IMG/VR virus record: IMGVR_UViG_2606217117_000017
Direction: 5' to 3' (one strand)
DNA from: a virus
Lineage: Duplodnaviria > Heunggongvirae > Uroviricota > Caudoviricetes
DNA: 15,493 bases
Under the pieces are notes generated by a model, which searched no databases, was not told the DNA's origin, and was given only the letters and a program-made list of their open reading frames with translations. Both the position numbers and the translations under genes were made by a program. Positions 1 through 15,493 of the stretch are shown piece by piece; the first letter of the stretch is position 1, and each line of letters begins with the position of its first letter.

Positions 1-623
1 CGCTGTGTGTAGGCCAGCGATACATACTGAGAACCTTTATCACTGTGATGGACCGTGCCGGACGGTCGACGGGCCCATAACGCCTGCTCCAGTGCATCCA
101 GCACGAATGTCGTCTCCATGGACGATGAGACCCGCCACCCCACAATGTATCCGGCAAACACATCAATGATGAACGCCACATAGACGAAGCCCTGCCATGT
201 GCTGACGTAAGTAAAATCAGCCACCCACAGCTGGTCAGGTCGTTCTGCCACGAACTGACGGTTTACGCGGTCGCCTGCGGCAACGGCTTTCCGGCTGATG
301 GTCGTACGGACCTTTTTACCCCGGAGAACACCGGCAAGTCCCATAACCGCCATGAGACGTGCCACAGTGCATCTGGCCACTCTGATACCTTCCCGTAACA
401 ACTGACGCCAGACTTTACGCACACCGTATACCTTGTGATTTTCATCGTATACGCGCTGTATCTCTTTCTTCAGCCAGTCATCGCGCTGCGCACGGGCACT
501 GCGTTTATCCGGATGATGTCGCTGTTGCTGACAGTGGTAATACGTTGACGGGGCAATATGCAGTTCGCTGCATAGCGGTCCGACCCCGTACTGCTCACGC
601 AGCTTATCCAGCAGTGGCATCAT
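1..623 (-). CDS. IS629 OrfB (DDE transposase catalytic subunit), partial; C-terminus lies beyond the window start
   Basis: Own translation of the minus strand: starts ATGATG at 623-618 ([29 protein letters not shown]...) and reaches ...[20 protein letters not shown] at the window edge (IS3-family DDE-region signature HSDxGSQY). Same frame throughout. Confidence 0.8.
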
Positions 624-946
624 TTTTTCCAGAGGCGGTCGAACTCCGCCTTCGCAAAATAAGCGGAAGCCTGGCGAAGGATATCGTTACTGCGGCGCAG
701 TTCACGATTTTCACGCTCCAGCTCTTTCAGACGCTGACGTTCAGCGGTGGTGAGCCCTCCATCACCGCCCCCGGTATCCCGCTCATGCTGGCGAACCCAG
801 ACACGCAGAGTCTCCGGCGTACAGCCAATCTTTGGAGCAATGGAACAAATTGTCGCCCATTGTGAGTCATATTCGCCCTGACTTTCCAGAACCATACGGA
901 CTGCCCGTTGACGGACTTCAGGGGAAAAACGAGTATTTTTAGTCAT
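620..946 (-). CDS. IS629 OrfA (IS3-family transposase N-terminal HTH subunit), 108 aa
   Basis: ORF-track protein [26 protein letters not shown]...[34 protein letters not shown] matches IS629/IS3-family OrfA from memory; poly-A slippery region at its 3' end. Confidence 0.88.
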
Positions 947-1001
947 CCTGTTTACCTCTTTCTCAGGAAGTTTAGTCTCCAGGATTCCCGGGGCGGTTCA
1001 A

Positions 1002-1700
1002 ACTGTACGTCGACTGATACAGCGGATTAACGAGATAATGATTTACGCTGTAAACACTGGTCTGATTGATGCCAATCCAGCATCGGGGGTTGGGATGGCC
1101 TTTGAGAAGCCCAAAAAGCAAAACATGCCAACATTGCGGCCAGAAGAATTGCCGAAGCTGATGCGTTCTTTAGCTATGTCAAACCTATCTGTTTCGACTC
1201 GCTGTCTCATTGAATGGCAACTCCTGACACTTGTGCGTCCTTCTGAAGCCTCTGGTGCTCGTTGGGCAGAGCTCGATCTTGATACAAAGCTCTGGACTAT
1301 TCCGGCAGAGAGAATGAAAGCCAAACGAGAGCACATTGTTCCTTTATCACCCCAAGCTTTAGATATTTTGGAAGTGATGAAGCCCATCAGTGCTCATCGT
1401 GAACATATTTTTCCTAGCAGAAATGATCCTAAGCAATCAATGAATAGCCAAACTGCTAATGCAGCTTTAAAACGTATTGGTTTTGGAGGAAAGCTAGTTG
1501 CTCATGGCCTCCGATCTATTGCAAGTACAGCAATGAATGAAGCTGGGTTCAATGCGGATGTTATTGAAGCAGCTTTAGCTCACAGTGATAAAAATGAAGT
1601 TCGTAAAGCCTATAATCGTTCAACCTACCTGGTTCAAAGAAAAGATTTAATGAACTGGTGGGGATTATTTTGTATTAGTTCGAAGAGTGTGAATAAATGA
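1002..1700 (+). pseudogene. int: P4-family tyrosine integrase, C-terminal ~230 codons only; 5' portion separated by the IS629 insertion
   Basis: Open frame runs from the IS629 end (no stop from 1002) to 1700. Translation contains catalytic-domain motifs AHGLRSIASTA (HxxR) and AHSDKNEVRKAYNRSTY (catalytic Tyr region) and resembles CP4-57 IntA/P4 Int C-terminal halves (QRINEIMIYAxNTGLIDAxP...). No N-terminal arm-binding domain is present in the window. Confidence 0.8.
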
Positions 1701-3334
1701 ATACTTATAAGCAAACCATTAAACAAAAATCAAGATTAAACATATGGGAAACAGCTATCGCAAGGTTGACAACCCAAGCTGAGAGCTCAAGAATCTTAGA
1801 ATCAAACTATTTAACAAATCTTATAGATTTTTGTTGGAAAGATACACTAAATCAAGTTGCTATATATGATGAGAGCATTGTATTACGCAATGGTTATAAT
1901 TGGGTGCAAAAAATAAGTGATAGTTATAAACCTAAAGCTGCAAGTGAACTAAAGATTGCTTTCTTTTGCGGCCCTGAACCAGAAAATGACTTGGATATAC
2001 TCTTATCATTAGATGTTAGAATAGAAAATATCTGGGCTTTTGAAATTGATAACAATTCATATAACACTGCCTTACAAAAAGCTAAAGAGTTCTATCCAAA
2101 ATTAAAAATATTCCCTGGTTCTATTGGGGAGTTTTTTAAAACCACACATCATACCTTTGATATTATTTACCTTGATTTTACAAGTTCGTTATTGACTAAA
2201 AAGAGCCCTCCCCTTGGAGTAATAAACTCTGTATTTGACAATCAGGCCCTATCAGACTTAGGGGTGTTAATTGTAAACTCTTGCGAACCCGATGCTAACG
2301 AAGATAACGCAACATTTCTTGCAAGTTATTTCATGAATCACGAAATAATTGAATCATCTGTAATTAACAAAACTAATGATGATGATTATGATGATAACTA
2401 TGATTATTTTTCACTTTTTATTGAATCCCCCACATCACAAGGATACGATGATATAAAGTCATTAGCAAAAGTTATAAAGACTAACATATCCGGAGCGTAC
2501 TCTGCCTTTTCAACAAGTTATGTAATGCACTATGCTTCAATGATTAGTCCAACACTTCGTTTTCTACAAAATAACTCATTAAAAAGACAATTATTTAATG
2601 ATAAAAAAGCTGAAGTAACTGCAACCTTTGCAGAAATTGGATCAACTGACTTTTTCAAAACATTAATATCAACAGATGGTGAAGCATCGTCCCCCTCCAT
2701 TTTAGGAAACAGATTCCTAGATAATGAAAGCTACCCATTCTGGAATTTCATTGATTCATTAAATGGCTCAGGAACAAGTATTTCATCTTACTTTAAGAGC
2801 TTTTTCACCACCGCTAAAGAAGGTGTATCCATTTTAAATGCCGTGCAATTTCGGGAATCATTTCACTCAATGCTTACAGGAGCTAGAAAGCTATTATCTC
2901 AGCGAATGCTCAATGCAATACCCCAAATAATAAAAGCAATTCCTGATGCTAGAGGTGGTTTATTCTGTGACATTCCTTTACCCCACCTTTGGTTAGAGGT
3001 GGCACTTAATCAGTTAGGTGCACCATACCATGTAAACGTGAAAATGCATAATCGATGGAAATATAAAGCAAAAACTCGCACAATGCATACGGACTTATTT
3101 GTTTTTGATAGATGCAGAGGTTTTTATGACTCAATGCCTATGATAGATCAATACGAAACGATTCTTACTAACATCGAAGAACAAATTTTCGCTAGGTGTT
3201 GTATTGATATTATTGGTAAGCAATGTCGTTGGCCAACTCCAAAACTTTATTTTGGTTCGAACCTAATTGGAATAAACGAGTCTGATTGGTCTGAGTTCGC
3301 CGAACTTCGTGAAAGAGAAATTATAAAAGAATAA
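1697..3334 (+). CDS. Hypothetical 545-aa protein, AT-rich cargo gene in the P4 int-psu accessory hotspot; function unknown (candidate anti-phage defence protein). N-terminal third has a weak Rossmann/SAM-methyltransferase-like motif pattern.
   Basis: Long uninterrupted ORF with a start overlapping the int stop (ATGA at 1697-1700). Hand counts of 60-nt blocks give roughly 23-45% G+C versus ~70% in a block of alpha. Motif-like segments KIAFFCGPEP, DVRIENIWAFEID, FDIIYLDFTSS, GVLIVNS; acidic low-complexity stretch NDDDYDDNYDY. No Walker A, HNH or obvious PD-(D/E)xK motif seen. Confidence 0.75.
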   Translation: MNTYKQTIKQKSRLNIWETAIARLTTQAESSRILESNYLTNLIDFCWKDTLNQVAIYDESIVLRNGYNWVQKISDSYKPKAASELKIAFFCGPEPENDLDILLSLDVRIENIWAFEIDNNSYNTALQKAKEFYPKLKIFPGSIGEFFKTTHHTFDIIYLDFTSSLLTKKSPPLGVINSVFDNQALSDLGVLIVNSCEPDANEDNATFLASYFMNHEIIESSVINKTNDDDYDDNYDYFSLFIESPTSQGYDDIKSLAKVIKTNISGAYSAFSTSYVMHYASMISPTLRFLQNNSLKRQLFNDKKAEVTATFAEIGSTDFFKTLISTDGEASSPSILGNRFLDNESYPFWNFIDSLNGSGTSISSYFKSFFTTAKEGVSILNAVQFRESFHSMLTGARKLLSQRMLNAIPQIIKAIPDARGGLFCDIPLPHLWLEVALNQLGAPYHVNVKMHNRWKYKAKTRTMHTDLFVFDRCRGFYDSMPMIDQYETILTNIEEQIFARCCIDIIGKQCRWPTPKLYFGSNLIGINESDWSEFAELREREIIKE

Positions 3335-3348
3335 ATCTCCACGCGCGC

Positions 3349-3367
3349 AGTGCTTTCCCCGCCTCGC
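3349..3367. other. cos site: 19-nt P2/P4-type cohesive-end sequence
   Basis: 3349-3367 is gtgctttccccgcctcgcc, the reverse complement of GGCGAGGCGGGGAAAGCAC, which I recall as the P2/P4 cohesive end. It sits between the cargo gene and psu, as cos does in P4. Confidence 0.7.
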
Positions 3368-3468
3368 CCGCCCGCTTTGCGGGGCGGTTTTAATGCAGTT
3401 GCACTGACACGCTCAGACCGCGCCGGGAATGGCGCGGTTTGCAGAAAATGAGGCAGGGAAACGCATGC

Positions 3469-3502
3469 AAAGCCATGCACCTTATCGATGCATGGCTTTT
3501 TT
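3469..3502 (+). terminator. Rho-independent terminator (possibly weakly bidirectional) between cos and the psu 3' end
   Basis: Perfect inverted repeat aaagccatgca (3469-3479) / tgcatggcttt (3489-3499) with a 9-nt loop, followed by a T-run on the + strand (3497-3502). On the minus strand the hairpin is followed by a less T-rich tail. Confidence 0.6.
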
Positions 3503-3532
3503 CAGTAAAAACGGGCGGATTTTCGGGGAATT

Positions 3533-4105
3533 TTACACTGACTGACGTGATGCAAGTTGCGCACTTTTACGCGAAAAAATCATGTTCTGCGCAGGGGTGA
3601 ATTTTTCACGGCTGTCATCCACCGAAGCCACGTCAGGCCTGAATCCGATGGTCGTTAAAATGTCGCTATCCTGTGCGGAATAATTAATTTTTTCACCCTT
3701 CGCAAGCCAGGACAGAAGGGCTTCACGCAGGGCATCTGTGGCACGCTGTATGGCACAGTTTCGGGCAATGGCCGTCAGCTCACTGTAGCCCATCAGCTCC
3801 GGTGCCAGTGCGGCCGCCAGTACTGTGCCGTGCTGCTGCATAAAATCATTCAGCCGGTCGCGGATGCTGATGTGCTGAACGGCTTCATGCGAACGAATAT
3901 AACGACCGGCGGCCTGATTCACCTGCCATTTTCTGACTTCGATAATATTGCGTAATTCGTCCAGGCGGCTGACGTTTCTGCCTTCTCCTGACAGAAGCCG
4001 CAGATATTCCTGTTCGGCCGCTGCCAGCTCATTTTTGCGTTGCAGCCATGCTGCTTTGTTATTCTGACAGGTGTCAAAGGCCTGCTGTAAGGCTGTGCTT
4101 TCCAT
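3533..4105 (-). CDS. psu: Psu (polarity suppression / capsid decoration protein), 190 aa
   Basis: 190-aa ORF, last gene of a three-gene leftward operon after sid and delta. Size and order match P4 Psu as recalled. Confidence 0.85.
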   Translation of the reverse strand: MESTALQQAFDTCQNNKAAWLQRKNELAAAEQEYLRLLSGEGRNVSRLDELRNIIEVRKWQVNQAAGRYIRSHEAVQHISIRDRLNDFMQQHGTVLAAALAPELMGYSELTAIARNCAIQRATDALREALLSWLAKGEKINYSAQDSDILTTIGFRPDVASVDDSREKFTPAQNMIFSRKSAQLASRQSV

Positions 4106-4178
4106 CGTTATCTCTTTCTCATCATGCTGAAGAATAAAAATACGGTGTGCGGCGACGGCCGGGGTTAACCGGCAGCCC

Positions 4179-4679
4179 TCATTCCAGACGCAGCGAATAT
4201 GATTGTGTTTTTAACCGTACTGGCGGCAGTTCCTGTTTTTCATGCAGGCGTTCTGCCAGTTCGTCCGGCGTGACCGGGCGGACAATGAAGCGGGTGATGG
4301 TCTGAAGCGTTTTAAACACCAGACCACAGTCCGGATCCGTGCACACATAAAAACGCTCGGTGACTTCCTGAGACAGACGCCGCGATGTTCTTGACAGCGC
4401 AAGGCCTTTACATCTCCGACAACAATATCCGGTAACAAGCATTCTTTTCGGGCGTTTCATACTGCCGGAGGCTGACGTCAGTGAATCGCGGTATCTCTGT
4501 TTGCCTGAAATGTATTCCATTCCTGAATCTTTACTGTCAGAGAAAAAGCTTTCACTCGCTTCAAATGTCGCAGAGCAATAAATATTCCGGCACTGTGCAA
4601 TCATTATCTTGGTGCCATCGTCCATGAAATGTGCGCGACGGGTGTGAGCAACATGTCCACACGACGGGCAGTAAATCAT
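4179..4679 (-). CDS. delta: Delta (Ogr-family zinc-finger late transcription activator, tandem Ogr-like domains), 166 aa
   Basis: Two Cys-rich Ogr-like zinc-finger modules (MIYCPSCGH...CRNIYC... and ...YCCRRCKG...CTDPDC...). 166 aa as in P4 delta. Start ATG overlaps the sid stop (ATGA at 4676-4679). Confidence 0.85.
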   Translation of the reverse strand: MIYCPSCGHVAHTRRAHFMDDGTKIMIAQCRNIYCSATFEASESFFSDSKDSGMEYISGKQRYRDSLTSASGSMKRPKRMLVTGYCCRRCKGLALSRTSRRLSQEVTERFYVCTDPDCGLVFKTLQTITRFIVRPVTPDELAERLHEKQELPPVRLKTQSYSLRLE

Positions 4680-5410
4680 GACAGCAGTCCTCTGGCCTTA
4701 AGCTCTGCTCCCTGCTGGTCTATTTTGTCCTGCCACACCTTGCGCTGTGCCGGTGTGCCTGCCACCTCATAATCCATGTGCGGGAGTGTTGCCGCTGACA
4801 GTCCGGTCAGCCGGAGAACCGGCTCGCCGGTGAGGCTGATTTGCATCTGTTTAATTTTCTGTTCCAGCGATGATTTCACCTGCTGCATGACAGCTTTATC
4901 GGGTGCGACGTAGCCCTGATGGCCGGTGGTGTTGGCGAGCGGATTTTCCTGTACCAGGATACTCAGATGCATTGCCCGGACAAGCGCCTCACAGGTTTCA
5001 TTCAGGGCGTGTTCCAGCTCATGCTCTGCATACAGACTCAGAAGGTGATGATGTGCCTTCCGGTAGGCGGTGGCCGTGCTGTCACACGCCCCTTTCAGGC
5101 GTTCACGTTCGAAATTCAGCACCACGGCCAGATTGTCATATTCCTGTACCAGCTCCCGGCGTGCCACGCGCTCAATGTGGCGCTGTTTCAGCTCGTCGCT
5201 CAGGACACCACCGGCTGCACGAAAGGCCGTGCGCCAGTCGTCAGCGTCGTTTCCGTTGGCCTGCGTCAGCGCATTTTTTTCCTGCTCTGCCCGTTCAATG
5301 GCCGTGATGGTCTCATCCATCAGGCGGGCGTTCTCAAGATGAGCGGCTCTGGCCTTTTCCAGTTGTGCCAGTGCGGGTTGCAGATATTCAGGGATGGTGT
5401 TGTCAGACAT
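4676..5410 (-). CDS. sid: Sid (capsid size determination, external scaffold), 244 aa from ATG at 5410 (an upstream in-frame GTG at 5428 would give 250 aa)
   Basis: Coiled-coil-like, Ala/Glu/Leu-rich protein at the head of the sid-delta-psu operon. ATG at 5410 is preceded by GGAG about 10 nt upstream; 244 aa matches P4 Sid as recalled. Confidence 0.8.
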   Translation of the reverse strand: MSDNTIPEYLQPALAQLEKARAAHLENARLMDETITAIERAEQEKNALTQANGNDADDWRTAFRAAGGVLSDELKQRHIERVARRELVQEYDNLAVVLNFERERLKGACDSTATAYRKAHHHLLSLYAEHELEHALNETCEALVRAMHLSILVQENPLANTTGHQGYVAPDKAVMQQVKSSLEQKIKQMQISLTGEPVLRLTGLSAATLPHMDYEVAGTPAQRKVWQDKIDQQGAELKARGLLS

Positions 5411-5424
5411 TTTCCGGCTCCTCG

Positions 5425-5500
5425 TCACTTCAGGTTAAGAAAATTGTGACGTACACCGGACAACAACACGACGCATTGCAGATGTGCCAGCCCTGACACA
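5425..5500 (-). promoter_or_regulatory. Candidate Psid late promoter with Ogr/Delta-type activator dyad TGT-N12-ACA
   Basis: TGTgccagccctgacACA at 5483-5500 (palindromic half-sites 12 nt apart), centred about 55 nt upstream of a predicted minus-strand start near 5436; weak -10-like cacaat at 5437-5432. A second TGT-N12-ACA at 5435-5452 lies too close to the sid ATG to be the activator site. Confidence 0.4.
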
Positions 5501-5579
5501 GGAGACTCATCCTCACACCGGCAAGCCAGGAAAAGGTCGCAGGAAAAACCGGCTTACTGTTTGTTTTTTTATATTTTAC

Positions 5580-5683
5580 TGTTCACCTCTGTTCACCATA
5601 AGAAAAAAGATAAGTAATACAGTAAGTTAAAGGGTGAACAATCGCAGTAATGACTGTTCACCGTCTGTTCACCACTGTTCACC
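5580..5683. other. ori: replication origin with six copies of the P4 type I iteron TGTTCACC (alpha-binding octamer)
   Basis: Perfect octamers at 5580-5587, 5590-5597, 5655-5662, 5666-5673, 5676-5683 (TGTTCACC) and 5633-5640 (GGTGAACA, inverted), flanked by AT-rich runs (5561-5580, 5700-5730). Located between the divergent sid and vis/alpha operons. Confidence 0.75.
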
Positions 5684-5788
5684 CGTTGATGGGCTTTTTG
5701 TGCTGTTTATTACTGTTTATTTTTATTAATTCGCCGGGAATGAATAAGAAAAAACGATTTGTATTTCACTATAAAAATTACGAATTGC

Positions 5789-5818
5789 TTTAAGTGGCTT
5801 TAAATGACTTTAAGTGGA
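5789..5818. promoter_or_regulatory. Three tandem 10-bp repeats resembling P2 Cox boxes (TTAAAGNCA on the minus strand)
   Basis: ctttaagtgg / ctttaaatga / ctttaagtgg at 5789-5818. The reverse complement contains TTAAAGTCA and TTAAAGCCA, matching the Cox-box consensus as I recall it. Lies upstream of the candidate PLL dyad. Confidence 0.4.
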
Positions 5819-5852
5819 GATGAACAAAAAACACACAAGCATTGTAAGGCTG

Positions 5853-5870
5853 CCGGAACAAATCCCCCCT
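5853..5870 (+). promoter_or_regulatory. Candidate PLL-type late promoter activator site (TGT-N12-ACA) upstream of vis
   Basis: TGTaaggctgccggaACA at 5853-5870; A/T-rich -10-like sequence around 5893-5900; vis ATG at 5963. Confidence 0.35.
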
Positions 5871-5962
5871 GTTGCGTCTGCCAAAAATATTCACAAAATA
5901 AAGCGCTACCCGAAGCCGGACGGACTTATCCGGTGCTGTATGGACATTAACGAGGTAGCCCG

Positions 5963-6229
5963 ATGCAAGCTGTTTTTTCTTCCCCGTCTCCCGCCCCTGT
6001 GACGCCACTGATGCCGCTGCCGGACATCACGCAGGAACGTTTTTTACGTCTGCCGGAAGTAATGCACCTGTGCGGCCTGTCACGCTCGACCATCTATGAA
6101 CTCATCCGTAAGGGGGAATTTCCGCCGCAGGTGAGTCTTGGCGGTAAAAATGTGGCCTGGCTGCACTCTGAAGTCACCGCATGGATGGCCGGGCGCATTG
6201 CCGGACGCAAACGGGGGTACGACGCATGA
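5963..6229 (+). CDS. vis: Vis / AlpA-family excisionase-type DNA-binding regulator (88 aa; an internal ATG at 6011 would give 72 aa)
   Basis: MerR/AlpA-type HTH ([48 protein letters not shown]). GAGG SD 8 nt upstream of ATG 5963. Position and size equal P4 vis (orf88) as recalled. Confidence 0.75.
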
Positions 6230-6264
6230 TGATGCCCGCTCTGCAAAAACTCCCTTTTTCTGGC

Positions 6265-6294
6265 TTGCCTTTTTTCGGCATTTGCGGATATAGT
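6265..6294 (+). promoter_or_regulatory. Candidate sigma70 promoter (PLE-like) for the immunity/alpha operon
   Basis: TTGCCT (6265-6270), 18-nt spacer, TATAGT (6289-6294); followed by the seqA-like element. Confidence 0.35.
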
Positions 6295-6324
6295 TTTCCC
6301 GCTGCCGCAAAATCGGCAGCCGGG

Positions 6325-6620
6325 CGTGGAAACCCGAGCAATCTAACGGCGACATATGACGCGCCATGCGTCTTTTTTTGTGTCGCAATCAACGCCACAG
6401 AGCGCCAGATTATGGTGTGGTGTGTGGTCAGTCGAGCAGATGGCACTCCGTGCATCCTGCCCGCGTCCGCTCATTATGCCGCAGGGTCAATGGTAGCTCA
6501 GGCGGGGCAGCCTCCGGGCTGGCCGGTATCCGTTAGAGCCGGTATTTCCACCCCCGTCTGGGCTATCGCCATCGAGCGTGGAAACTCCGGCGATAGCGTA
6601 ACCTGCTATCTAACGGAGGC
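6325..6620 (+). ncRNA. cI: P4-type RNA immunity leader: putative seqA (~6335-6353), CI-RNA/seqB (~6520-6545) and seqC (~6598-6618)
   Basis: Two direct copies of cgtggaaac...atctaacgg (6325-6349 and 6578-6614) flank a segment containing the complementary tccgttaga (6529-6537). This is the arrangement expected for a CI RNA that pairs with upstream and downstream target sites. Boundaries are approximate. Confidence 0.45.
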
Positions 6621-6627
6621 TGCCATC

Positions 6628-6825
6628 ATGGCTACAACCCTTACCCCTTCACACCCTGAATTTGTCTTTGTGTTTGCGGCTGTCCGTCGCGCAGACCGTC
6701 ATCCCCGTATCTGCATGCTTCGCACCGTCGCCGGTGATGAACGCAGTGCCCGCCGTTCCCTTGTCCGTGACTATGTGCTCTCCCTTGCTGCCCGTCTGCC
6801 GGTGGTGGAGGTGTCCCGTGCGTAA
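6628..6825 (+). CDS. Hypothetical small protein (~65 aa) immediately downstream of the seqC-like site
   Basis: ATG at 6628 preceded by GGAGG (6614-6618). It is the 3' part of a longer ORF-track frame whose upstream portion overlaps vis and the regulatory leader and is unlikely to be coding. Confidence 0.4.
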
Positions 6826-7105
6826 TAAAAAAGCCCCTCAGACCGTCTCAGCACGTCATGACGCCCGTGAACACCTCAGCATTGAGGCTTACCATAAGCT
6901 CAACCGCGCCAGCGCCGTATCCCAGTTTGTTGGGGGTGATTTGATTCACCGTGAACTCTCCGGCCTGCATCAGCTCTACATTCCGCATATTTTCAGCTAC
7001 CTGAATGAAGATATTGATTTTGTGCTGAATGAGCTGAAAGCCAAAGGCCTGTGCCGCGATTTTCTCGCCCAGCAGAAAGACCGGGGAGACAGGACGCATG
7101 TTTGA
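6818..7105 (+). CDS. Hypothetical protein (~95 aa) at the position of P4 epsilon (anti-repressor); identity not established
   Basis: GTG at 6818 preceded by GGAGG (6807-6811); overlaps the stop of the preceding small ORF and is itself overlapped by the orf151 start (ATG 7098 / stop 7103-7105), suggesting translational coupling. It is the 3' part of ORF-track frame 6662-7105. Confidence 0.5.
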
Positions 7106-7553
7106 TTTTCCCCAGCCCGGTGAGATTTACCGTTCTGCCGGTTTTCCCGATGTGGCCGTGGTCGGCATTCTGGAAGACGGTATTCCGTGGGAAATGCCGT
7201 ACCGCTGCCCGGACATTGTCTGGAACCCGTACCGCCGTAAATTCAGTATCCTTGTGCGTATCCTCGCTGACGGGCGCACCACAGACATCCCGCTGGGGCG
7301 TTTTCTGCGGGAATTTACCTGTGACCGTCCTGACCTGTTTAAACGCAGCCCCGTAAACCGGCATGCGGTACTGAAAGAAATGGCCGGAGACCCGGAATTA
7401 CAGAAATGGCGGGAGAAATATCTGGATATTTACCCGCAGGACACTGTTCCGGTCAGCCGGGCGGCACCGGTGGCGCGGGAATGGCGGGAAATTCCCCGCA
7501 CGGAGCCTGACCCGGAAATCACCCCGGATAACAGTTACCGCAATTATCTGTAA
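7098..7553 (+). CDS. orf151-like protein (151 aa), P4 left-operon protein of unknown function
   Basis: Exactly 151 codons, upstream of alpha in the same operon; GGAGA SD upstream. Confidence 0.7.
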   Translation: MFDFPQPGEIYRSAGFPDVAVVGILEDGIPWEMPYRCPDIVWNPYRRKFSILVRILADGRTTDIPLGRFLREFTCDRPDLFKRSPVNRHAVLKEMAGDPELQKWREKYLDIYPQDTVPVSRAAPVAREWREIPRTEPDPEITPDNSYRNYL

Positions 7554-11016: not shown

Positions 11017-14000
11017 TCAGAACGACCAGTTCACACCAGCTACCGCGTTCCACGGGGATTCCACACCGGCACTATGGCTATACCCCACCCCAAGATGCCC
11101 GCTTAACGTACTGCTGAATGAGGCTTTAATACCTGCCTGGTATATTCCACGTCTGCCCGACAAATAATTGACGAAATTACCGTCACTATTCACTTTCACC
11201 CGGTTATCATCGACAAATTCTTTGCGCACAGCCGCCTTCAGCCACGGCTCAACTTCCATACCGTTCCCCAGACGCATGTTGTAACTCAGCGTTGCGCCCA
11301 GTTCACGATATATACTGCGGGTATCGACTGATTTCGATTTCATGCCATTGGATAAATGATATTCGGGGTTATCAGCGGTGAACCCCGTTAACGATGCATA
11401 CGGCGTCAGGTTCCAGTTACCATCGGTAAATCGCATCCCGGTTTCAATGTGACCGCCCAGCCCGTTGCTGTGGTAACTGCCATTGGCGGCTCCACCGCTG
11501 CTCATTTTACCTGCTACGTTACTTTTAAAACGGTTCAGCTTCACGACACCGTCCAGATAGAAACCACTTTCATGTTCCCAACTGGCATAGCCGCCCAGAG
11601 AATAACTGCCCACACTGCCATGTCCTCCGCGATCAAAACCGATATGTGAATGGGAATAGCCCATAAAAGCGCCTAGCGTGGTAATTCCTTCAGGAATATC
11701 ATTACGGCTGTCGATCCCCACTGTCATTCCGGTCAGCGTCTGCTCAAACCCGGCACCCGCATCGGTGGTGACATTATTACGGGTGTTATACGTCGCCCCC
11801 CAGACATTATTGTTGTGTGGACTCGCTTTCATTATGTTCAACCGCTCGCGAATACTGTTTAGCTCAGCATCAAATACCAACGGTAATGTTGCTGCCATAT
11901 TGAGTACGGCTGCCGTAGAAGGCGTAATGCGTTTCTCCGGAACGGGTGTCGGCGTTGGATCGGGAGTAGGGTCTGGTTTTGGATTTGGGTCTGGCTTTGG
12001 ATCGGGTTTTGGGTCTGGCTTTGGATTTGGGATGGGGTCCGGGTTGGGTTTGACATCATTGGTCAGGTTCCAGTTGCTGTTGCCGTCACTTTTCAGGACA
12101 TACTCATAGGTCCCAAGATCAACGAAACCGCCGGTATTGCCCAGCGTAAACGAAGCATCCCCTCCCCCTGTTTTCACCAGCGTCATCGCGTCGTCAGACT
12201 GTGGGCTGACGCCGGTATCCTGAACAAAGATTTTAAAATTACCAGTGGCGTTGTTGTTGACGACCAGTTGATCGCCCCGGGAGCCTGCAACGTTGGTATG
12301 CAGGTAGAAATTACCGCTACCGGAAAGTTCATTGGTTGTCAGCGTATTGTAGATACCGTTAGTTGTGGCAGGCGCTGCTGTTTGTGCTGACAAATAAACA
12401 TCACCGTCGTTGAGTAGCAAACTGTTTACTCTATATTCGCAGTTGCTGGTACCTGCACAGGAATTATTGCTGTTAAGCCAGACACTGCCCCGGCTGGCAG
12501 CCGTCAGGTCGGCAAGCGTGGTATCGACGCCATTTCCCAGAGTCAATGTCGCGCTATCGGTAATCCGGACCGCCCCTTCGAGTTTAACTGGCGTAACATT
12601 ATCCCGTGGCGTCATTAACGACAGGCTTCCTGTCGCGCCACTGACCGATGCATCCGCCAGCGTACCTGCGTAGACGATTGCCGTACCGCCAGCGACCTGG
12701 AGATCTTCTGCCCGGGCCAGAGCCTGAAACTCATCTTTTGACCGCCCAAGGGTATATTGCCCGCCAGAGTTAACCTTTGTGGCGGAGTCCTGACCCAGGT
12801 TTTGCATTGCCCCACCCTTGCCAACCGTGGAGTCGCGAGCTTCGGTACCTGCTAATACCAATAAATTACCGCCATTTTCCAGCAACATATTGGTCGCTAA
12901 ATTGCCGGAAATGGAAAAAGTACCGTACTGGTGAGTACCGCTGATTTCAATACCGTTAGCCGTGCTCGTCTGGAGAGCGGCACCGCTGTTCTGGACGATA
13001 TCTGTCGCTTTGCCATTATCGTTGACTGTCAGCGTACCGCCTTCATTGATCTTTGTTTTTATTGCCTCTCCGTTAGCTGAAACTGTTTGTATTCCGCCGT
13101 CGTTAATTGTTGTCTCATTCGCCACACCCTCGACAATTTGTTCACCGCCGGTGAGCGTCGTGCCTGTCGCAGTGGCTTTTGTTTTGACGATCTCCCGTCC
13201 GCCCATATTGACCTGTGTTTTGTCAGAAGAGGTGTCTGACTCCACGGTTAACACGCCGCCATTTGCCAGCAGGATATTGTTCGCCGCACCCTGCTCGATG
13301 CTGAACGCGACGCCATCCGCGCGTGTTCCTGTGACCCGCGTCGCCCTGGTGGTTGCAACCAAAGCGCCCTGGCTACTCTGCTGTATCCCCGTTGCGCTGC
13401 CTTTCTCCCGCACATCGAGTGTGCCGCCGTCATTAAGCACCGAGTTTTCAGCCAGACCGCCCTCATTAACTACCTGTGAACCCCCATTAATAATGGAACC
13501 TTCCGCTGTCCCGTTTGCCATAATTTGTTGTAGGCCAGAGACGATATCGGTATTGATTGCCTTACCATAATTCTGAACGGTTTGCGTGCCACCATTGATG
13601 TGTGTTTTCTCTGTTGACCCACCATCAACAATTTGTTCACCACTTTCGATATTTGCTTCAGTGGCTAAACCATATACCGTTTGCTTGCCACCTTTGATAT
13701 TTGCTTTATCAGAAGTGGCACTGGCATATATTGTTTGGGTGCCAGCACTATTGAGTACAGTGCCAACATCTTTTCCATAAACATCCATTTTGCCGTTGGC
13801 ATTAATAATCGTGTCAACTGCGCGGGAACCAGTGACGACTGTTAATGAGCCAGCGTTTTCCAGCACTACATTTTTAGCTTCTGAATTCCTGATGTAGAAA
13901 GCATCACCATAACTGTTGGTTCCTTCGATAAGTGTTCCGGAGGTCGTGGAAGCAATTAATGCGCCGCCGGATTGTTGCTCAACATGCTTAGCCTCACCAC

Positions 14001-14164
14001 CGTCCTGAACCTCCAGAACGCCGCCATTATTAAGTCTGGTGCTATCTGTTTTAGCCTCCTTCTGGACAATCAGCTTACCGCCAGTATCAATGGTAGTATT
14101 TTTCGCCGAGGTTTTAGCCACTACCGTCAGTTCGCCGGTATTTTCCAGCACAACATAATTAGCC
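11017..14164 (-). pseudogene. AIDA-I/Ag43-type (type Va) autotransporter adhesin, 5'-truncated by IS10 (no signal peptide or N-terminal passenger start in window)
   Basis: C-terminal beta-barrel ending ...AVAGVNWSF; repetitive Gly/Thr/Asn-rich passenger with ~19-aa repeats (GGxQxV...); Pro-rich linker PNPDPIPNPKPDPKPDPKPDP. The ORF-track start codon at 14218-14220 and first 18 codons lie inside the IS10 terminus, so the native 5' end is missing. Confidence 0.8.
11948..12053. repeat. In-frame tandem repeat (24-bp period, GGNTYTGG-type units) encoding the Pro-Asp/Lys linker of the autotransporter
   Basis: gggtctggctttggat occurs at 11988-12003 and 12012-12027, with related hexamer units throughout 11948-12053. 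Confidence 0.7.
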
Positions 14165-15493
14165 CTGATGAATCCCCTAATGATTTTGGTAAAAATCATT
14201 AAGTTAAGGTGGATACACATCTTGTCATATGATCAAATGGTTTCGCGAAAAATCAATAATCAGACAACAAGATGTGCGAACTCGATATTTTACACGACTC
14301 TCTTTACCAATTCTGCCCCGAATTACACTTAAAACGACTCAACAGCTTAACGTTGGCTTGCCACGCCTTACTTGACTGTAAAACTCTCACTCTTACCGAA
14401 CTTGGCCGTAACCTGCCAACCAAAGCGAGAACAAAACATAACATCAAACGAATCGACCGATTGTTAGGTAATCGTCACCTCCACAAAGAGCGACTCGCTG
14501 TATACCGTTGGCATGCTAGCTTTATCTGTTCGGGCAATACGATGCCCATTGTACTTGTTGACTGGTCTGATATTCGTGAGCAAAAACGACTTATGGTATT
14601 GCGAGCTTCAGTCGCACTACACGGTCGTTCTGTTACTCTTTATGAGAAAGCGTTCCCGCTTTCAGAGCAATGTTCAAAGAAAGCTCATGACCAATTTCTA
14701 GCCGACCTTGCGAGCATTCTACCGAGTAACACCACACCGCTCATTGTCAGTGATGCTGGCTTTAAAGTGCCATGGTATAAATCCGTTGAGAAGCTGGGTT
14801 GGTACTGGTTAAGTCGAGTAAGAGGAAAAGTACAATATGCAGACCTAGGAGCGGAAAACTGGAAACCTATCAGCAACTTACATGATATGTCATCTAGTCA
14901 CTCAAAGACTTTAGGCTATAAGAGGCTGACTAAAAGCAATCCAATCTCATGCCAAATTCTATTGTATAAATCTCGCTCTAAAGGCCGAAAAAATCAGCGC
15001 TCGACACGGACTCATTGTCACCACCCGTCACCTAAAATCTACTCAGCGTCGGCAAAGGAGCCATGGGTTCTAGCAACTAACTTACCTGTTGAAATTCGAA
15101 CACCCAAACAACTTGTTAATATCTATTCGAAGCGAATGCAGATTGAAGAAACCTTCCGAGACTTGAAAAGTCCTGCCTACGGACTAGGCCTACGCCATAG
15201 CCGAACGAGCAGCTCAGAGCGTTTTGATATCATGCTGCTAATCGCCCTGATGCTTCAACTAACATGTTGGCTTGCGGGCGTTCATGCTCAGAAACAAGGT
15301 TGGGACAAGCACTTCCAGGCTAACACAGTCAGAAATCGAAACGTACTCTCAACAGTTCGCTTAGGCATGGAAGTTTTGCGGCATTCTGGCTACACAATAA
15401 CAAGGGAAGACTCACTCGTGGCTGCAACCCTGCTTACTCAAAATTTATTCACACATGGTTACGCTTTGGGGAAATTATGAGGGGATCTCTCAG
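14165..15493 (+). mobile_element. IS10 (IS4 family), complete 1329-bp copy; outside end at 14165, inside end at the last base of the window
   Basis: Begins CTGATGAATCCCCTAATGATTTTGGTAAAAATCATTAAGTTAAGGTGGATACACATCTTGTCATATGATC (IS10 outside end, from memory) and ends ...TTATGAGGGGATCTCTCAG (inside end); length 1329 bp. Confidence 0.9.
14272..15480 (+). CDS. IS10 transposase, 402 aa
   Basis: ORF-track protein MCELDILHDSLYQFCPELHLKRLNSLTLACHALLDCKTLTLTELGRNL... matches the IS10/Tn10 transposase from memory; starts 108 nt inside the element. Confidence 0.92.
   Translation: MCELDILHDSLYQFCPELHLKRLNSLTLACHALLDCKTLTLTELGRNLPTKARTKHNIKRIDRLLGNRHLHKERLAVYRWHASFICSGNTMPIVLVDWSDIREQKRLMVLRASVALHGRSVTLYEKAFPLSEQCSKKAHDQFLADLASILPSNTTPLIVSDAGFKVPWYKSVEKLGWYWLSRVRGKVQYADLGAENWKPISNLHDMSSSHSKTLGYKRLTKSNPISCQILLYKSRSKGRKNQRSTRTHCHHPSPKIYSASAKEPWVLATNLPVEIRTPKQLVNIYSKRMQIEETFRDLKSPAYGLGLRHSRTSSSERFDIMLLIALMLQLTCWLAGVHAQKQGWDKHFQANTVRNRNVLSTVRLGMEVLRHSGYTITREDSLVAATLLTQNLFTHGYALGKL

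What the first reader, a model, noticed from the sequence alone, without database searches (positions are those of the whole stretch)
1300..1700. Compositional breakpoint inside the 3' third of int, with the int stop overlapping the cargo start
Hand counts of 60-nt blocks give about 53% G+C at 1081-1140 but about 38% at 1441-1500, and the AT-rich character continues through the 545-codon ORF. The int TGA and the cargo ATG overlap (ATGA, 1697-1700). This suggests the cargo was acquired together with a foreign int 3' end, so the cassette junction lies within int, and that the cargo may be co-transcribed or translationally coupled with int.
Basis: seen in the sequence. Interest (0 to 1): 0.5.

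Follow-up and report, generated by a model that had tools for sequence, protein, structure and literature searches.

The report
Defence-hotspot edge inside satellite integrase gene
The drop in G+C at the end of this integrase gene is real, but it is the normal left edge of the known swap-in site for anti-phage genes in P4-like phage satellites: all related integrases show it, and the piece that came in with this cargo is only about the last 130 bases of the gene.

Summary
Observation confirmed. G+C is 53.3% at 1081-1140 and 38.3% at 1441-1500. The int TGA and the cargo ATG share ATGA at 1697-1700.

The drop is purely synonymous: third-position G+C falls from 0.42 to 0.22 at window 1389 (p=0.014), while first and second positions stay flat.

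The drop does not mark a junction specific to this cargo. It occurs in 59 of 60 related integrases from Enterobacterales, whatever lies downstream, and in two other integrase families of P4-like satellites.

The locus is the known P4 hotspot between int and cos. The right edge is sharp, 7 nt from cos (3350-3368). The left edge is diffuse and lies inside int. An E. coli allele with an unrelated cargo is 99.4% identical up to about 1543 and 64% after 1568. All cargo classes become unalignable after the WWG codons (1656-1664).

Across 33 loci with 19 cargo classes, cargo identity is linked to the last ~360 nt of int (permutation p=0.0002).

Coupling with int is untested. In this window an IS3-family element has removed int codons 1-168.

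The cargo is an uncharacterised 545-aa protein with a methyltransferase fold. Relatives also sit in a P2 prophage accessory slot and in what looks like a Vibrio integron cassette array.

Overall: a new cargo in a known system, plus a fine-scale recombination footprint.

The parts
1..1000 (-). End of an IS3-family insertion sequence (IS629/IS1203-like by my reading of orfA), carrying the ALIL frameshift pseudoknot at 549-665. It interrupts int.
   Evidence: 100% identical over 1-1000 to many annotated 'IS3 family transposase' copies. Rfam ALIL match of 120 bits. Intact-int relatives match the window only from about 990-1001 onward.
1001..1700 (+). 3' fragment (codons 169-401) of the tyrosine integrase of a P4-like satellite that integrates at ssrA. 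A pseudogene in this window.
   Evidence: The full-length 401-aa gene sits next to ssrA in L001 and has the Arm-DNA-bind_3, Phage_int_M and Phage_integrase domains. Window and L001 differ by one base over 1001-7400.
1389..1664 (+). Stretch of int with low third-position G+C (0.22 against 0.42 upstream). First and second positions are unchanged. This is a family-wide feature.
   Evidence: Change point at codon 298, p=0.014. GC3 versus GC12 profiles. 59 of 60 relatives show lower GC3 here. Family median change point is codon 282, equivalent to window 1341.
1544..1571 (+). Crossover zone between this allele and the L002 allele, which carries an unrelated 561-aa cargo.
   Evidence: Only 3 differences over int nt 1-1048, then scattered differences at 1544-1571 and dense differences from 1572. 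Max-chi-square breakpoint at 1568; no permutation in 2000 reached it.
1572..1700 (+). Cargo-linked end of int. It encodes the catalytic Tyr (1626-1628) and the conserved WWG (1656-1664).
   Evidence: The nearest neighbour in this bin is L009 (K. aerogenes, orthologous cargo) at 92%. Rahnella L011 is among the next, at 83%.
1665..1700 (+). Variable int tail (LFCISSKSVNK plus stop). It reads through the cargo's leader, which holds an SD-like AAGAG at 1683-1687, 9 nt before the ATG, and the ATGA overlap at 1697-1700.
   Evidence: All cargo classes are unalignable after WWG. Tails differ between most cargo classes. In the Rahnella and Pectobacterium orthologues int stops earlier, 11 and 17 nt before the ATG.
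1697..3334 (+). Cargo: a 545-aa uncharacterised protein with a class-I methyltransferase fold (about residues 85-220) and an unmatched C-terminal half. 33.9% G+C, GC3 26%.
3343..3368 (-). Sharp right edge of the hotspot: GCGCGCA followed by the 19-nt P2/P4 cohesive-end sequence (cos, 3350-3368).
   Evidence: Exact match to GGCGAGGCGGGGAAAGCAC on the minus strand, none in shuffles. In 10 E. coli elements with different cargos, sequence is unrelated up to about 5-7 nt before cos and nearly identical from there on.
3368..3387 (+). G+C-rich hairpin with a T run; a terminator-like site directly after cos.
   Evidence: Consensus scan only.
3533..4105 (-). psu, the first backbone gene on the far side of the hotspot.
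   Evidence: Annotated Psu in L001. Only a slight GC3 fall in its last 60 codons.

Best explanation
Window 1001-3368 is the left part of a P4-like phage satellite integrated at ssrA: int, one cargo gene, then cos. This interval is the known hotspot where such satellites swap anti-phage cargo. I propose that swaps replace everything from a fixed point beside cos up to a variable crossover point inside the conserved 3' end of int.

Shown:
- The right edge is sharp, about 7 nt from cos.
- The left edge is diffuse. Pairs of alleles with different cargos break at about 1224-1307, at 1544-1571 and finally at 1665, after the WWG codons.
- The nearer a base of int lies to its stop codon, the more often it has travelled with a cargo. 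The last ~360 nt of int are therefore linked to cargo class, are more diverged at synonymous sites among otherwise close alleles, and have third-position G+C close to that of the AT-rich cargo pool.
- For this element, the piece that demonstrably goes with the 545-aa cargo begins at about 1572.
- The last 11 int codons and the TGA are a read-through of the cargo's own leader. That is why the stop overlaps the ATG.

Inferred:
- That the synonymous G+C decline is caused by this shared history with the cargo pool, or by reduced homogenising recombination next to non-homologous DNA.
- That exchange starts from a cos end, as Rousset et al. 2022 suggested.

Not shown: expression of the cargo through int transcription.
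For: - Locus identity: ssrA-int-cargo-psu-delta-sid in L001; cos at 3350-3368; C4 and isrK RNAs and the alpha primase further on. The hotspot is described in PMC9122126 and PMC13586616.
- The drop is synonymous only: GC3 13-30% in codons 300-390 against about 40-50% upstream, with GC12 flat.
- The drop is family-wide: 59 of 60 intact relatives, mean GC3 0.48 falling to 0.34, with 34% G+C in the 1 kb downstream. Median change point is codon 282.
- It also occurs in the P4/leuX-type family (11 of 12) and in a family about 40% identical (12 of 14).
- Breakpoints: 1568 against L002, about 1224 against L003, 906 against L004 and L015; about 1307 for L006 against L105.
- All classes become unalignable after WWG.
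- Linkage in 33 unique loci with 19 cargo classes: same-cargo non-clonal pairs rise from about 80-85% to 89, 92, 93 and 95% from window-equivalent 1305. Different-cargo pairs with at least 97% identical 5' parts fall to 88, 90, 85 and 78%. Permutation p=0.0002.
- Among 18 close alleles, third-position identity falls from about 70% to about 50% from 1305 onward.
- Pairwise identity declines toward the 3' end in all three int families.
- Sharp cos-side edge.
- Orthologous cargos in Klebsiella, Rahnella and Pectobacterium sit in the same slot with alignable int tails.
Against: - The causal step from linkage to low GC3 is not demonstrated. Swapped int ends come from other satellites' int genes, so hitchhiking alone does not say why those ends became AT-rich in the first place.
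- GC3 of the last 90 codons did not correlate with the G+C of the downstream 1 kb across loci (Spearman about 0, n=39).
- In the cross-genus sample the same-cargo excess of identity was small (+5 points, last bin only).
- The psu side shows almost no comparable gradient. This fits a one-sided model but does not prove it.
- The key pair classes are small (6 and 10 pairs) and the pairs are not independent.
- L004 and L005 share the same int tail yet carry different cargos, so the junction is sometimes beyond the int stop.
Confidence: 0.6

Rival explanations
1. One reading: a single acquisition event brought this cargo together with a foreign int 3' third, so the G+C break at about 1300-1400 is the cassette junction of this element.
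For: - The GC3 change point is at 1389.
- L003 diverges from this allele from about 1224.
- The 1280-1560 stretch is rarer among E. coli genomes than 993-1270: most other alleles are about 81% identical in the former and about 90% in the latter.
Against: - L002, with an unrelated cargo (no BLASTP similarity), shares 1224-1543 at 99-100%.
- The K. aerogenes allele with the orthologous cargo is no closer than other alleles in 1305-1570, and clearly closer only from 1575.
- The same GC3 drop is present in 59 of 60 relatives with other cargos.
Confidence: 0.08
2. The AT-rich 3' end of int is kept by selection for expression of the downstream gene. It would provide an internal promoter, an unstructured leader or a ribosome-binding region, so that the cargo is co-transcribed or translationally coupled with int.
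For: - There is no intergenic space: a 4-nt overlap, and only 15 nt between the cargo stop and cos.
- 18 of 29 same-strand cargos start within -20 to +27 nt of the int stop. Six, from five unrelated cargo families, use ATGA.
- An SD-like AAGAG lies 9 nt before the ATG (sequence).
- In the P4 prototype, cII also follows int on the same strand.
Against: - The GC3 drop is at least as large when the first cargo gene is on the opposite strand: 0.155 against 0.124.
- Promoter-like sites are not more frequent than in shuffles, and none lies on the + strand in 1040-1696.
- The overlap is lost in the Rahnella and Pectobacterium orthologues.
- ATGA in about 5 of 28 independent cases is only weakly above a rough chance expectation of 5-10% (my estimate).
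Confidence: 0.15
3. The ultimate cause of the low synonymous G+C is mutational. DNA next to non-homologous cargo recombines less with other alleles. It therefore escapes homogenisation (and any GC-biased conversion) and drifts toward A+T. This is compatible with the best explanation and would be its underlying cause.
For: - The 5' three quarters of int are homogenised among close alleles (third-position identity about 70%), while the last quarter is near saturation (about 50%).
- The two gradients start at the same place, about 1305-1390.
Against: - No direct measurement of recombination rate or mutation spectrum was made.
- GC-biased conversion in bacteria is itself debated (my knowledge, not tested here).
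- The psu side lacks a similar gradient.
Confidence: 0.25
4. The drop is an effect of amino-acid composition in the catalytic domain, or chance in a short sequence.
For: Raw G+C change within the 700-nt fragment alone is not significant (p=0.10).
Against: - First and second codon positions are flat across the gene.
- GC3 change point has p=0.014.
- 59 of 60 relatives change in the same direction.
- Five other tyrosine integrases in the fetched loci show no consistent 3' decline, though the sample is small.
Confidence: 0.03

Closest known systems
Defence hotspot of P4-like satellites between int and psu/cos (Rousset et al. 2022, PMC9122126; Moura de Sousa et al. 2026, PMC13586616)
   Same: Same backbone (int, psu, delta, sid, alpha, cos, C4 RNA). 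Same slot. Cargo in either orientation. Elements with near-identical core genes carry unrelated cargo. The hotspot lies directly beside cos.
   Different: In the text I searched, neither paper mentions G+C content or breakpoints. Here the left edge is mapped inside the int reading frame, with a variable tail after WWG, crossovers over the last ~400 nt, and gradients of linkage and synonymous G+C. The right edge is mapped to about 7 nt from cos. The 545-aa cargo is not among the systems described in the sections I read.
Satellite P4 itself (NC_001609): int followed by cII, with gop and beta, before cos
   Same: int is followed on the same strand by an AT-rich accessory gene (cII, 34% G+C). P4 int also ends in an AT-rich tail after its WWADYLD motif.
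   Different: P4 int belongs to a different family (about 36% identity, leuX site). There is a 66-nt gap rather than an overlap. In P4 int, the GC3 fall is confined to the last ~40-60 codons.
Hitchhiking of flanking genes with a hypervariable locus under diversifying selection, for example gnd beside the O-antigen cluster of E. coli (my knowledge, not tested here)
   Same: A conserved gene next to a swapped cassette shows mosaic structure, and its divergence rises toward the cassette.
   Different: Here one side is a fixed site (cos) and only one flank shows the gradient. The flank also shows a synonymous compositional shift.
Overlapping stop/start (ATGA) gene pairs with translational coupling
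   Same: A 4-nt overlap, the same strand, and an SD-like motif inside the upstream gene.
   Different: The upstream reading frame ends in cargo-derived leader sequence, and the overlap is not conserved in two of the three orthologous loci. Coupling was never measured. In this window the upstream gene is cut by an IS.

Membership tests
P4-like satellite int-cos defence hotspot | P4 backbone genes and RNAs around the locus | tested here: met
   psu, delta, sid-like, ash, DUF5375 and alpha primase. C4 antisense RNA and isrK.
P4-like satellite int-cos defence hotspot | cos packaging site directly beside the variable region | tested here: met
   Exact 19-nt cohesive-end sequence at 3350-3368, 15 nt after the cargo stop.
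P4-like satellite int-cos defence hotspot | Unrelated cargo at the same slot in otherwise similar elements | tested here: met
   19 cargo classes in 33 unique loci.
P4-like satellite int-cos defence hotspot | The cargo protects against phage | not testable with these tools
   No hit in PADLOC. Only contextual support: relatives in a P2 accessory slot and in a Vibrio cassette array.
Tyrosine integrase of the P4 type | Arm-binding, central and catalytic domains; catalytic Tyr | tested here: not met
   Met by the intact copy in L001 (Y378). The window copy lacks codons 1-168, including the arm-binding domain, because of the IS. Here it is a pseudogene.
   L002 (unrelated cargo) is 99-100% identical through 1543.
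   59 of 60 relatives have lower GC3 in codons 301-390.
Translationally coupled overlapping gene pair | Stop/start overlap on the same strand | tested here: met
   ATGA at 1697-1700.
Translationally coupled overlapping gene pair | Overlap conserved among orthologous loci | tested here: inconclusive
   Kept in K. aerogenes. Replaced by gaps of 11 and 17 nt in Rahnella and Pectobacterium.
Translationally coupled overlapping gene pair | Shared transcript, with downstream translation dependent on upstream translation | not testable with these tools
   Needs RNA-seq, 5'-RACE or reporter fusions.
Class I SAM-dependent methyltransferase (cargo) | Rossmann-type methyltransferase fold | tested here: met
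Class I SAM-dependent methyltransferase (cargo) | Sequence membership in a curated methyltransferase family; cofactor-binding motifs | tested here: inconclusive
   No Pfam or NCBIfam hit. The PDB profile search gave only E=0.75 to YrrM. Invariant G92, E116 and D160 sit where cofactor-binding residues would be expected, but this is my reading and was not tested.

The most novel reading that the evidence does not exclude
Two readings are not excluded.

(1) The 545-aa protein (a Trm1-like methyltransferase fold plus an unmatched C-terminal half) is a new single-gene anti-phage system. It would move between the P4 int-cos hotspot, the slot between the tail-fibre assembly and tail-sheath genes of P2-like prophages, integrative islands, and what looks like a Vibrio chromosomal integron.

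(2) The sharp cos-side edge combined with the graded int-side linkage is the population footprint of a one-ended exchange. A cos end would start recombination and a homologous crossover in the int 3' end would finish it. The integrase's C-terminal tail would then be rewritten at each swap.
Probability: 0.45. Interest if true: 0.6.

Novelty: new member of a known kind. Interest (0 to 1): 0.4.

Why it matters
- It turns a compositional oddity into a measurable footprint of how satellites exchange defence genes: a fixed edge 7 nt from cos, and a crossover zone in the last ~400 nt of int.
- That gives direct, testable support to the cos-end plus homologous-crossover idea that Rousset et al. raised only as speculation.
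- It matters for delimiting cassettes. Cloning 'the genes between int and psu' omits the cargo-linked int end, which may hold expression signals.
- It flags a widespread, unannotated protein family with a methyltransferase fold as a candidate defence gene.
- It warns that the integrase C-terminal tail, and any phylogeny built on the int 3' end, reflects the cargo's history rather than the element's.

Tried and rejected
- **Related cargos.** I guessed that the 561-aa cargo of L002 was a diverged homologue of the 545-aa cargo, because a 561-aa Salmonella homologue exists. BLASTP shows no similarity. The 747-aa cargo of L007 is also unrelated.
- **Chi site.** The WWG codons give aCTGGTGG, which resembles Chi in the orientation that a RecBCD entering from cos would recognise. 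There is no exact Chi in the window or in any of the 60 ints, and most alleles have ATTGGTGG. Dropped.
- **Internal promoter.** The consensus scan found no + strand site in 1040-1696 and no excess over shuffles. A perfect TATAAT at 1611-1616 has no usable -35 hexamer and is simply the Ala-Tyr-Asn codons (sequence).
- **Symmetric gradient in psu.** Only a slight GC3 fall (59, 54, 51) in 11 genes. Homology on that side starts in the intergenic DNA at cos.
- **GC3 versus local G+C.** GC3 of the int end does not correlate with downstream or host-flank G+C.
- **Family searches for the cargo.** Pfam, PADLOC, NCBIfam, PHROGs and a PDB sequence profile were all empty or insignificant.
- **Artefact noted.** The 5,596 matching records were caused by the 30 IS bases at the start of that query, not by int.

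Full report
**1. What is in the window**

Bases 1-1000 are the end of an IS3-family insertion sequence on the minus strand. They are 100% identical to many annotated copies and carry the ALIL frameshift pseudoknot at 549-665. From 1001 the sequence is the 3' part of a tyrosine integrase gene, which ends at 1700. A 545-codon ORF follows at 1697-3334. After it come psu (3533-4105, minus), delta, a sid-like gene, the C4 and isrK RNAs, ash, DUF5375 and the alpha primase.

Five complete E. coli genomes carry the same element with an intact 401-aa integrase directly beside ssrA. The window differs from one of them (L001) by one base over 6.4 kb. Window position x corresponds to L001 position x+3011.

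The exact 19-nt P2/P4 cohesive-end sequence lies at 3350-3368, 15 nt after the cargo stop. The finding therefore sits in the known defence hotspot of P4-like satellites, between int and psu/cos (PMC9122126; PMC13586616). In this window int is a pseudogene that lacks codons 1-168.

**2. Checking the observation**

ATGA at 1697-1700 joins the int TGA and the cargo ATG.

- G+C is 47.7% in 1001-1300, 39.2% in 1301-1700 and 33.9% in the cargo. It is 57% again in 3335-3532.
- Split by codon position, the fall is entirely synonymous. In the full-length gene, third-position G+C is about 40-50% up to codon 300 and 13-30% afterwards. First and second positions stay at 40-60% throughout.
- The best third-position change point is codon 298 = window 1389 (0.42 to 0.22, p=0.014).
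- On raw G+C within the 700-nt fragment the best point is 1358, with p=0.10.
- Over 1001-3334 the best single point is 1588.

**3. Is the break specific to this cargo? No**

I fetched 80 loci from other Enterobacterales species that encode this integrase family, and 16 E. coli loci.

- In 59 of 60 intact genes, third-position G+C is lower in codons 301-390 than in codons 1-300 (means 0.34 and 0.48). First and second positions are unchanged. The 1 kb downstream averages 34% G+C.
- 35 of 59 genes have an individually significant drop. The median change point is codon 282, equivalent to window 1341.
- The drop is the same or larger when the first cargo gene is on the opposite strand: 0.155 against 0.124.
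- P4-like satellites with near-identical psu carry three different integrase families. All three show a third-position fall near the 3' end, a hypervariable tail after a conserved WW/QWY motif, and falling pairwise identity toward the 3' end.
- Five other tyrosine integrases in the fetched loci showed no consistent decline, but this is a small control.

**4. Where the junctions really are**

The int of this element is a patchwork.

| Segment (window coordinates) | Nearest relatives | Their cargo |
|---|---|---|
| 495-906 equivalent | L004 and L015, 99-100% | SIR2 |
| 906 to about 1224 | L003, 97-99% | SEC-C protein |
| Up to about 1543 | L002, 99.4% | Unrelated 561-aa protein (no BLASTP similarity) |
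| From 1572 | L009 (K. aerogenes), 92% in 1575-1664 | Orthologous cargo |

- Against L002, differences are scattered at 1544-1571 and dense from 1572. The max-chi-square breakpoint is 1568, with 64% identity to its right; no permutation in 2000 reached the observed value.
- In the last bin, the Rahnella orthologue's int (L011) is among the next closest at 83%.
- Every cargo class becomes unalignable after the WWG codons at 1656-1664.
- The last 6-19 residues of the protein vary between most cargo classes.
- In the Rahnella and Pectobacterium orthologues, int stops 11 and 17 nt before the cargo ATG. In E. coli and K. aerogenes the frame runs on through the same leader to the TGA of ATGA.
- The last 11 int codons are therefore a read-through of the cargo's leader. 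That leader holds an SD-like AAGAG 9 nt before the ATG.
- Other pairs break elsewhere in the int 3' end. L006 against L105 breaks at about 1307. L004 and L005 share the tail and diverge about 90 nt beyond the stop.

**5. Linkage in the population**

I analysed 33 unique loci of this int family, from E. coli RefSeq and IMG/VR, falling into 19 cargo classes.

- Pairs with the same cargo but different int backgrounds rise from about 80-85% identity in the 5' part to 89, 92, 93 and 95% in the four 90-nt bins from window-equivalent 1305.
- Pairs with different cargos but at least 97% identical 5' parts fall to 88, 90, 85 and 78% over the same bins.
- The excess association of cargo class with the last 360 nt has a permutation p of 0.0002.
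- Among 18 close alleles, third-position identity drops from about 70% to about 50% from 1305 onward.
- In the cross-genus sample the same-cargo excess is small, about 5 points in the last bin only.

**6. The other edge**

In 10 E. coli elements with different cargos, sequence is unrelated up to about 5-7 nt before cos (consensus GCGCGCA) and nearly identical from there on. psu shows almost no third-position gradient. The slot therefore has one sharp edge at cos and one diffuse edge inside int.

Rousset et al. speculated that cos ends start exchange and that a second, homologous event completes it. The pattern found here is what that model predicts, with the second event falling in the int 3' end. 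This is inference, not demonstration. A Chi-like octamer at the WWG codons looked attractive, but there is no true Chi in the window or in any allele.

**7. Co-transcription and coupling**

The geometry is compatible. There is no intergenic DNA, there is an SD-like motif, and the only terminator-like hairpin lies after cos.

- Tight spacing is common. 18 of 29 same-strand first cargo genes start within -20 to +27 nt of the int stop.
- Six use ATGA, representing five unrelated cargo families. By my rough estimate that is only weakly above chance.
- No + strand promoter-like site lies in 1040-1696.
- In this window the IS points away from int and has removed the int promoter and start. Any cargo expression here needs another promoter, such as the weak match at 1010-1039.

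None of this can be settled without transcript data.

**8. The cargo**

The 545-aa protein has no Pfam, PADLOC, NCBIfam or PHROG match. It has 180 homologues of about 540 aa in Proteobacteria, in Methanosarcina and Paenibacillus among other sources, and in metagenome assemblies.

- Orthologues in K. aerogenes, Rahnella and Pectobacterium occupy the same slot.
- More distant relatives sit between the tail-fibre assembly and tail-sheath genes of P2-like prophages, in an int-plus-relaxase island in Salmonella, and in a run of small same-strand cassettes in Vibrio parahaemolyticus that looks like the chromosomal integron.
- A defence role is a reasonable guess from context. Moura de Sousa et al. 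found 6 of 8 unknown P4 hotspot loci protective. It was not tested here.

**9. Verdict**

- The cassette edge is inside int, and the int end travels with the cargo.
- For this element the linked piece starts at about 1572, not at 1300-1400.
- The G+C break is a family-wide edge effect of a known hotspot, not the scar of one acquisition.
- The cause of the synonymous AT-richness remains inferred.

Noticed in passing
window 1-1000: An IS3-family element (IS629/IS1203-like; ALIL pseudoknot at 549-665) has cut int after codon 168. The satellite in this strain cannot make its integrase. The insertion point GGGGC..TT.AAACTG in the intact gene resembles the IS end itself.
   Followed up: partly
window 1697-3334; L096-L103: The cargo family (about 540 aa, methyltransferase fold, no database name) also occurs between the tail-fibre assembly and tail-sheath genes of P2-like prophages, in a Salmonella int-plus-relaxase island, and in a Vibrio parahaemolyticus cassette array that looks like an integron.
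   Followed up: partly
window 3343-3368, and the same site in L001-L005, L105-L111: Homology between elements with different cargos resumes about 5-7 nt before the cos cohesive-end sequence (consensus GCGCGCA). This edge is much sharper than the int-side edge.
   Followed up: yes
L107, L109 (int end at 3907-3910) and L106: With opposite-strand cargos, the cargo stop can also overlap or abut the int stop: a 4-nt convergent overlap in L107 and L109, and direct abutment in L106. The slot is packed tightly in both orientations.
   Followed up: partly
L004 against L005/L006: These elements share the same int tail (WWGEFVHNRH.LMQAI) and about 90 nt beyond the stop, yet carry different cargos (SIR2 against a 294-aa minus-strand gene). 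The left junction is not always inside int.
   Followed up: partly
L104 against L105: Same cargo at about 88% identity, but int positions 1275-1575 (window-equivalent) are 90-98% identical. That is higher than both the int 5' part and the cargo itself. Unexplained; it may be a recent conversion patch.
   Followed up: no
window 1664-1693, minus strand: A promoter-like site (TTCACA, 18 nt, AATAAT; 10 of 12) in the int tail points antisense into int. It is within the number expected from shuffles.
   Followed up: no
window 6288-6573: Rfam finds the P4 immunity RNA region: c4-a1b1 target (6288-6340), isrK (6301-6378) and C4 antisense RNA (6486-6573).
   Followed up: no
window 11017-15480: Beyond the alpha primase lie an AIDA/Ag43-type autotransporter (11017-14220, minus) and an IS10-like element: RNA-OUT at 14210-14279 and a DDE transposase at 14272-15480.
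   Followed up: no
L095 (P4, NC_001609) 2607-3926: P4's own integrase ends in a roughly 30-codon AT-rich tail after WADYLD, where first- and second-position G+C is only 13-30%. This suggests that its C-terminus also derives from hotspot DNA.
   Followed up: partly
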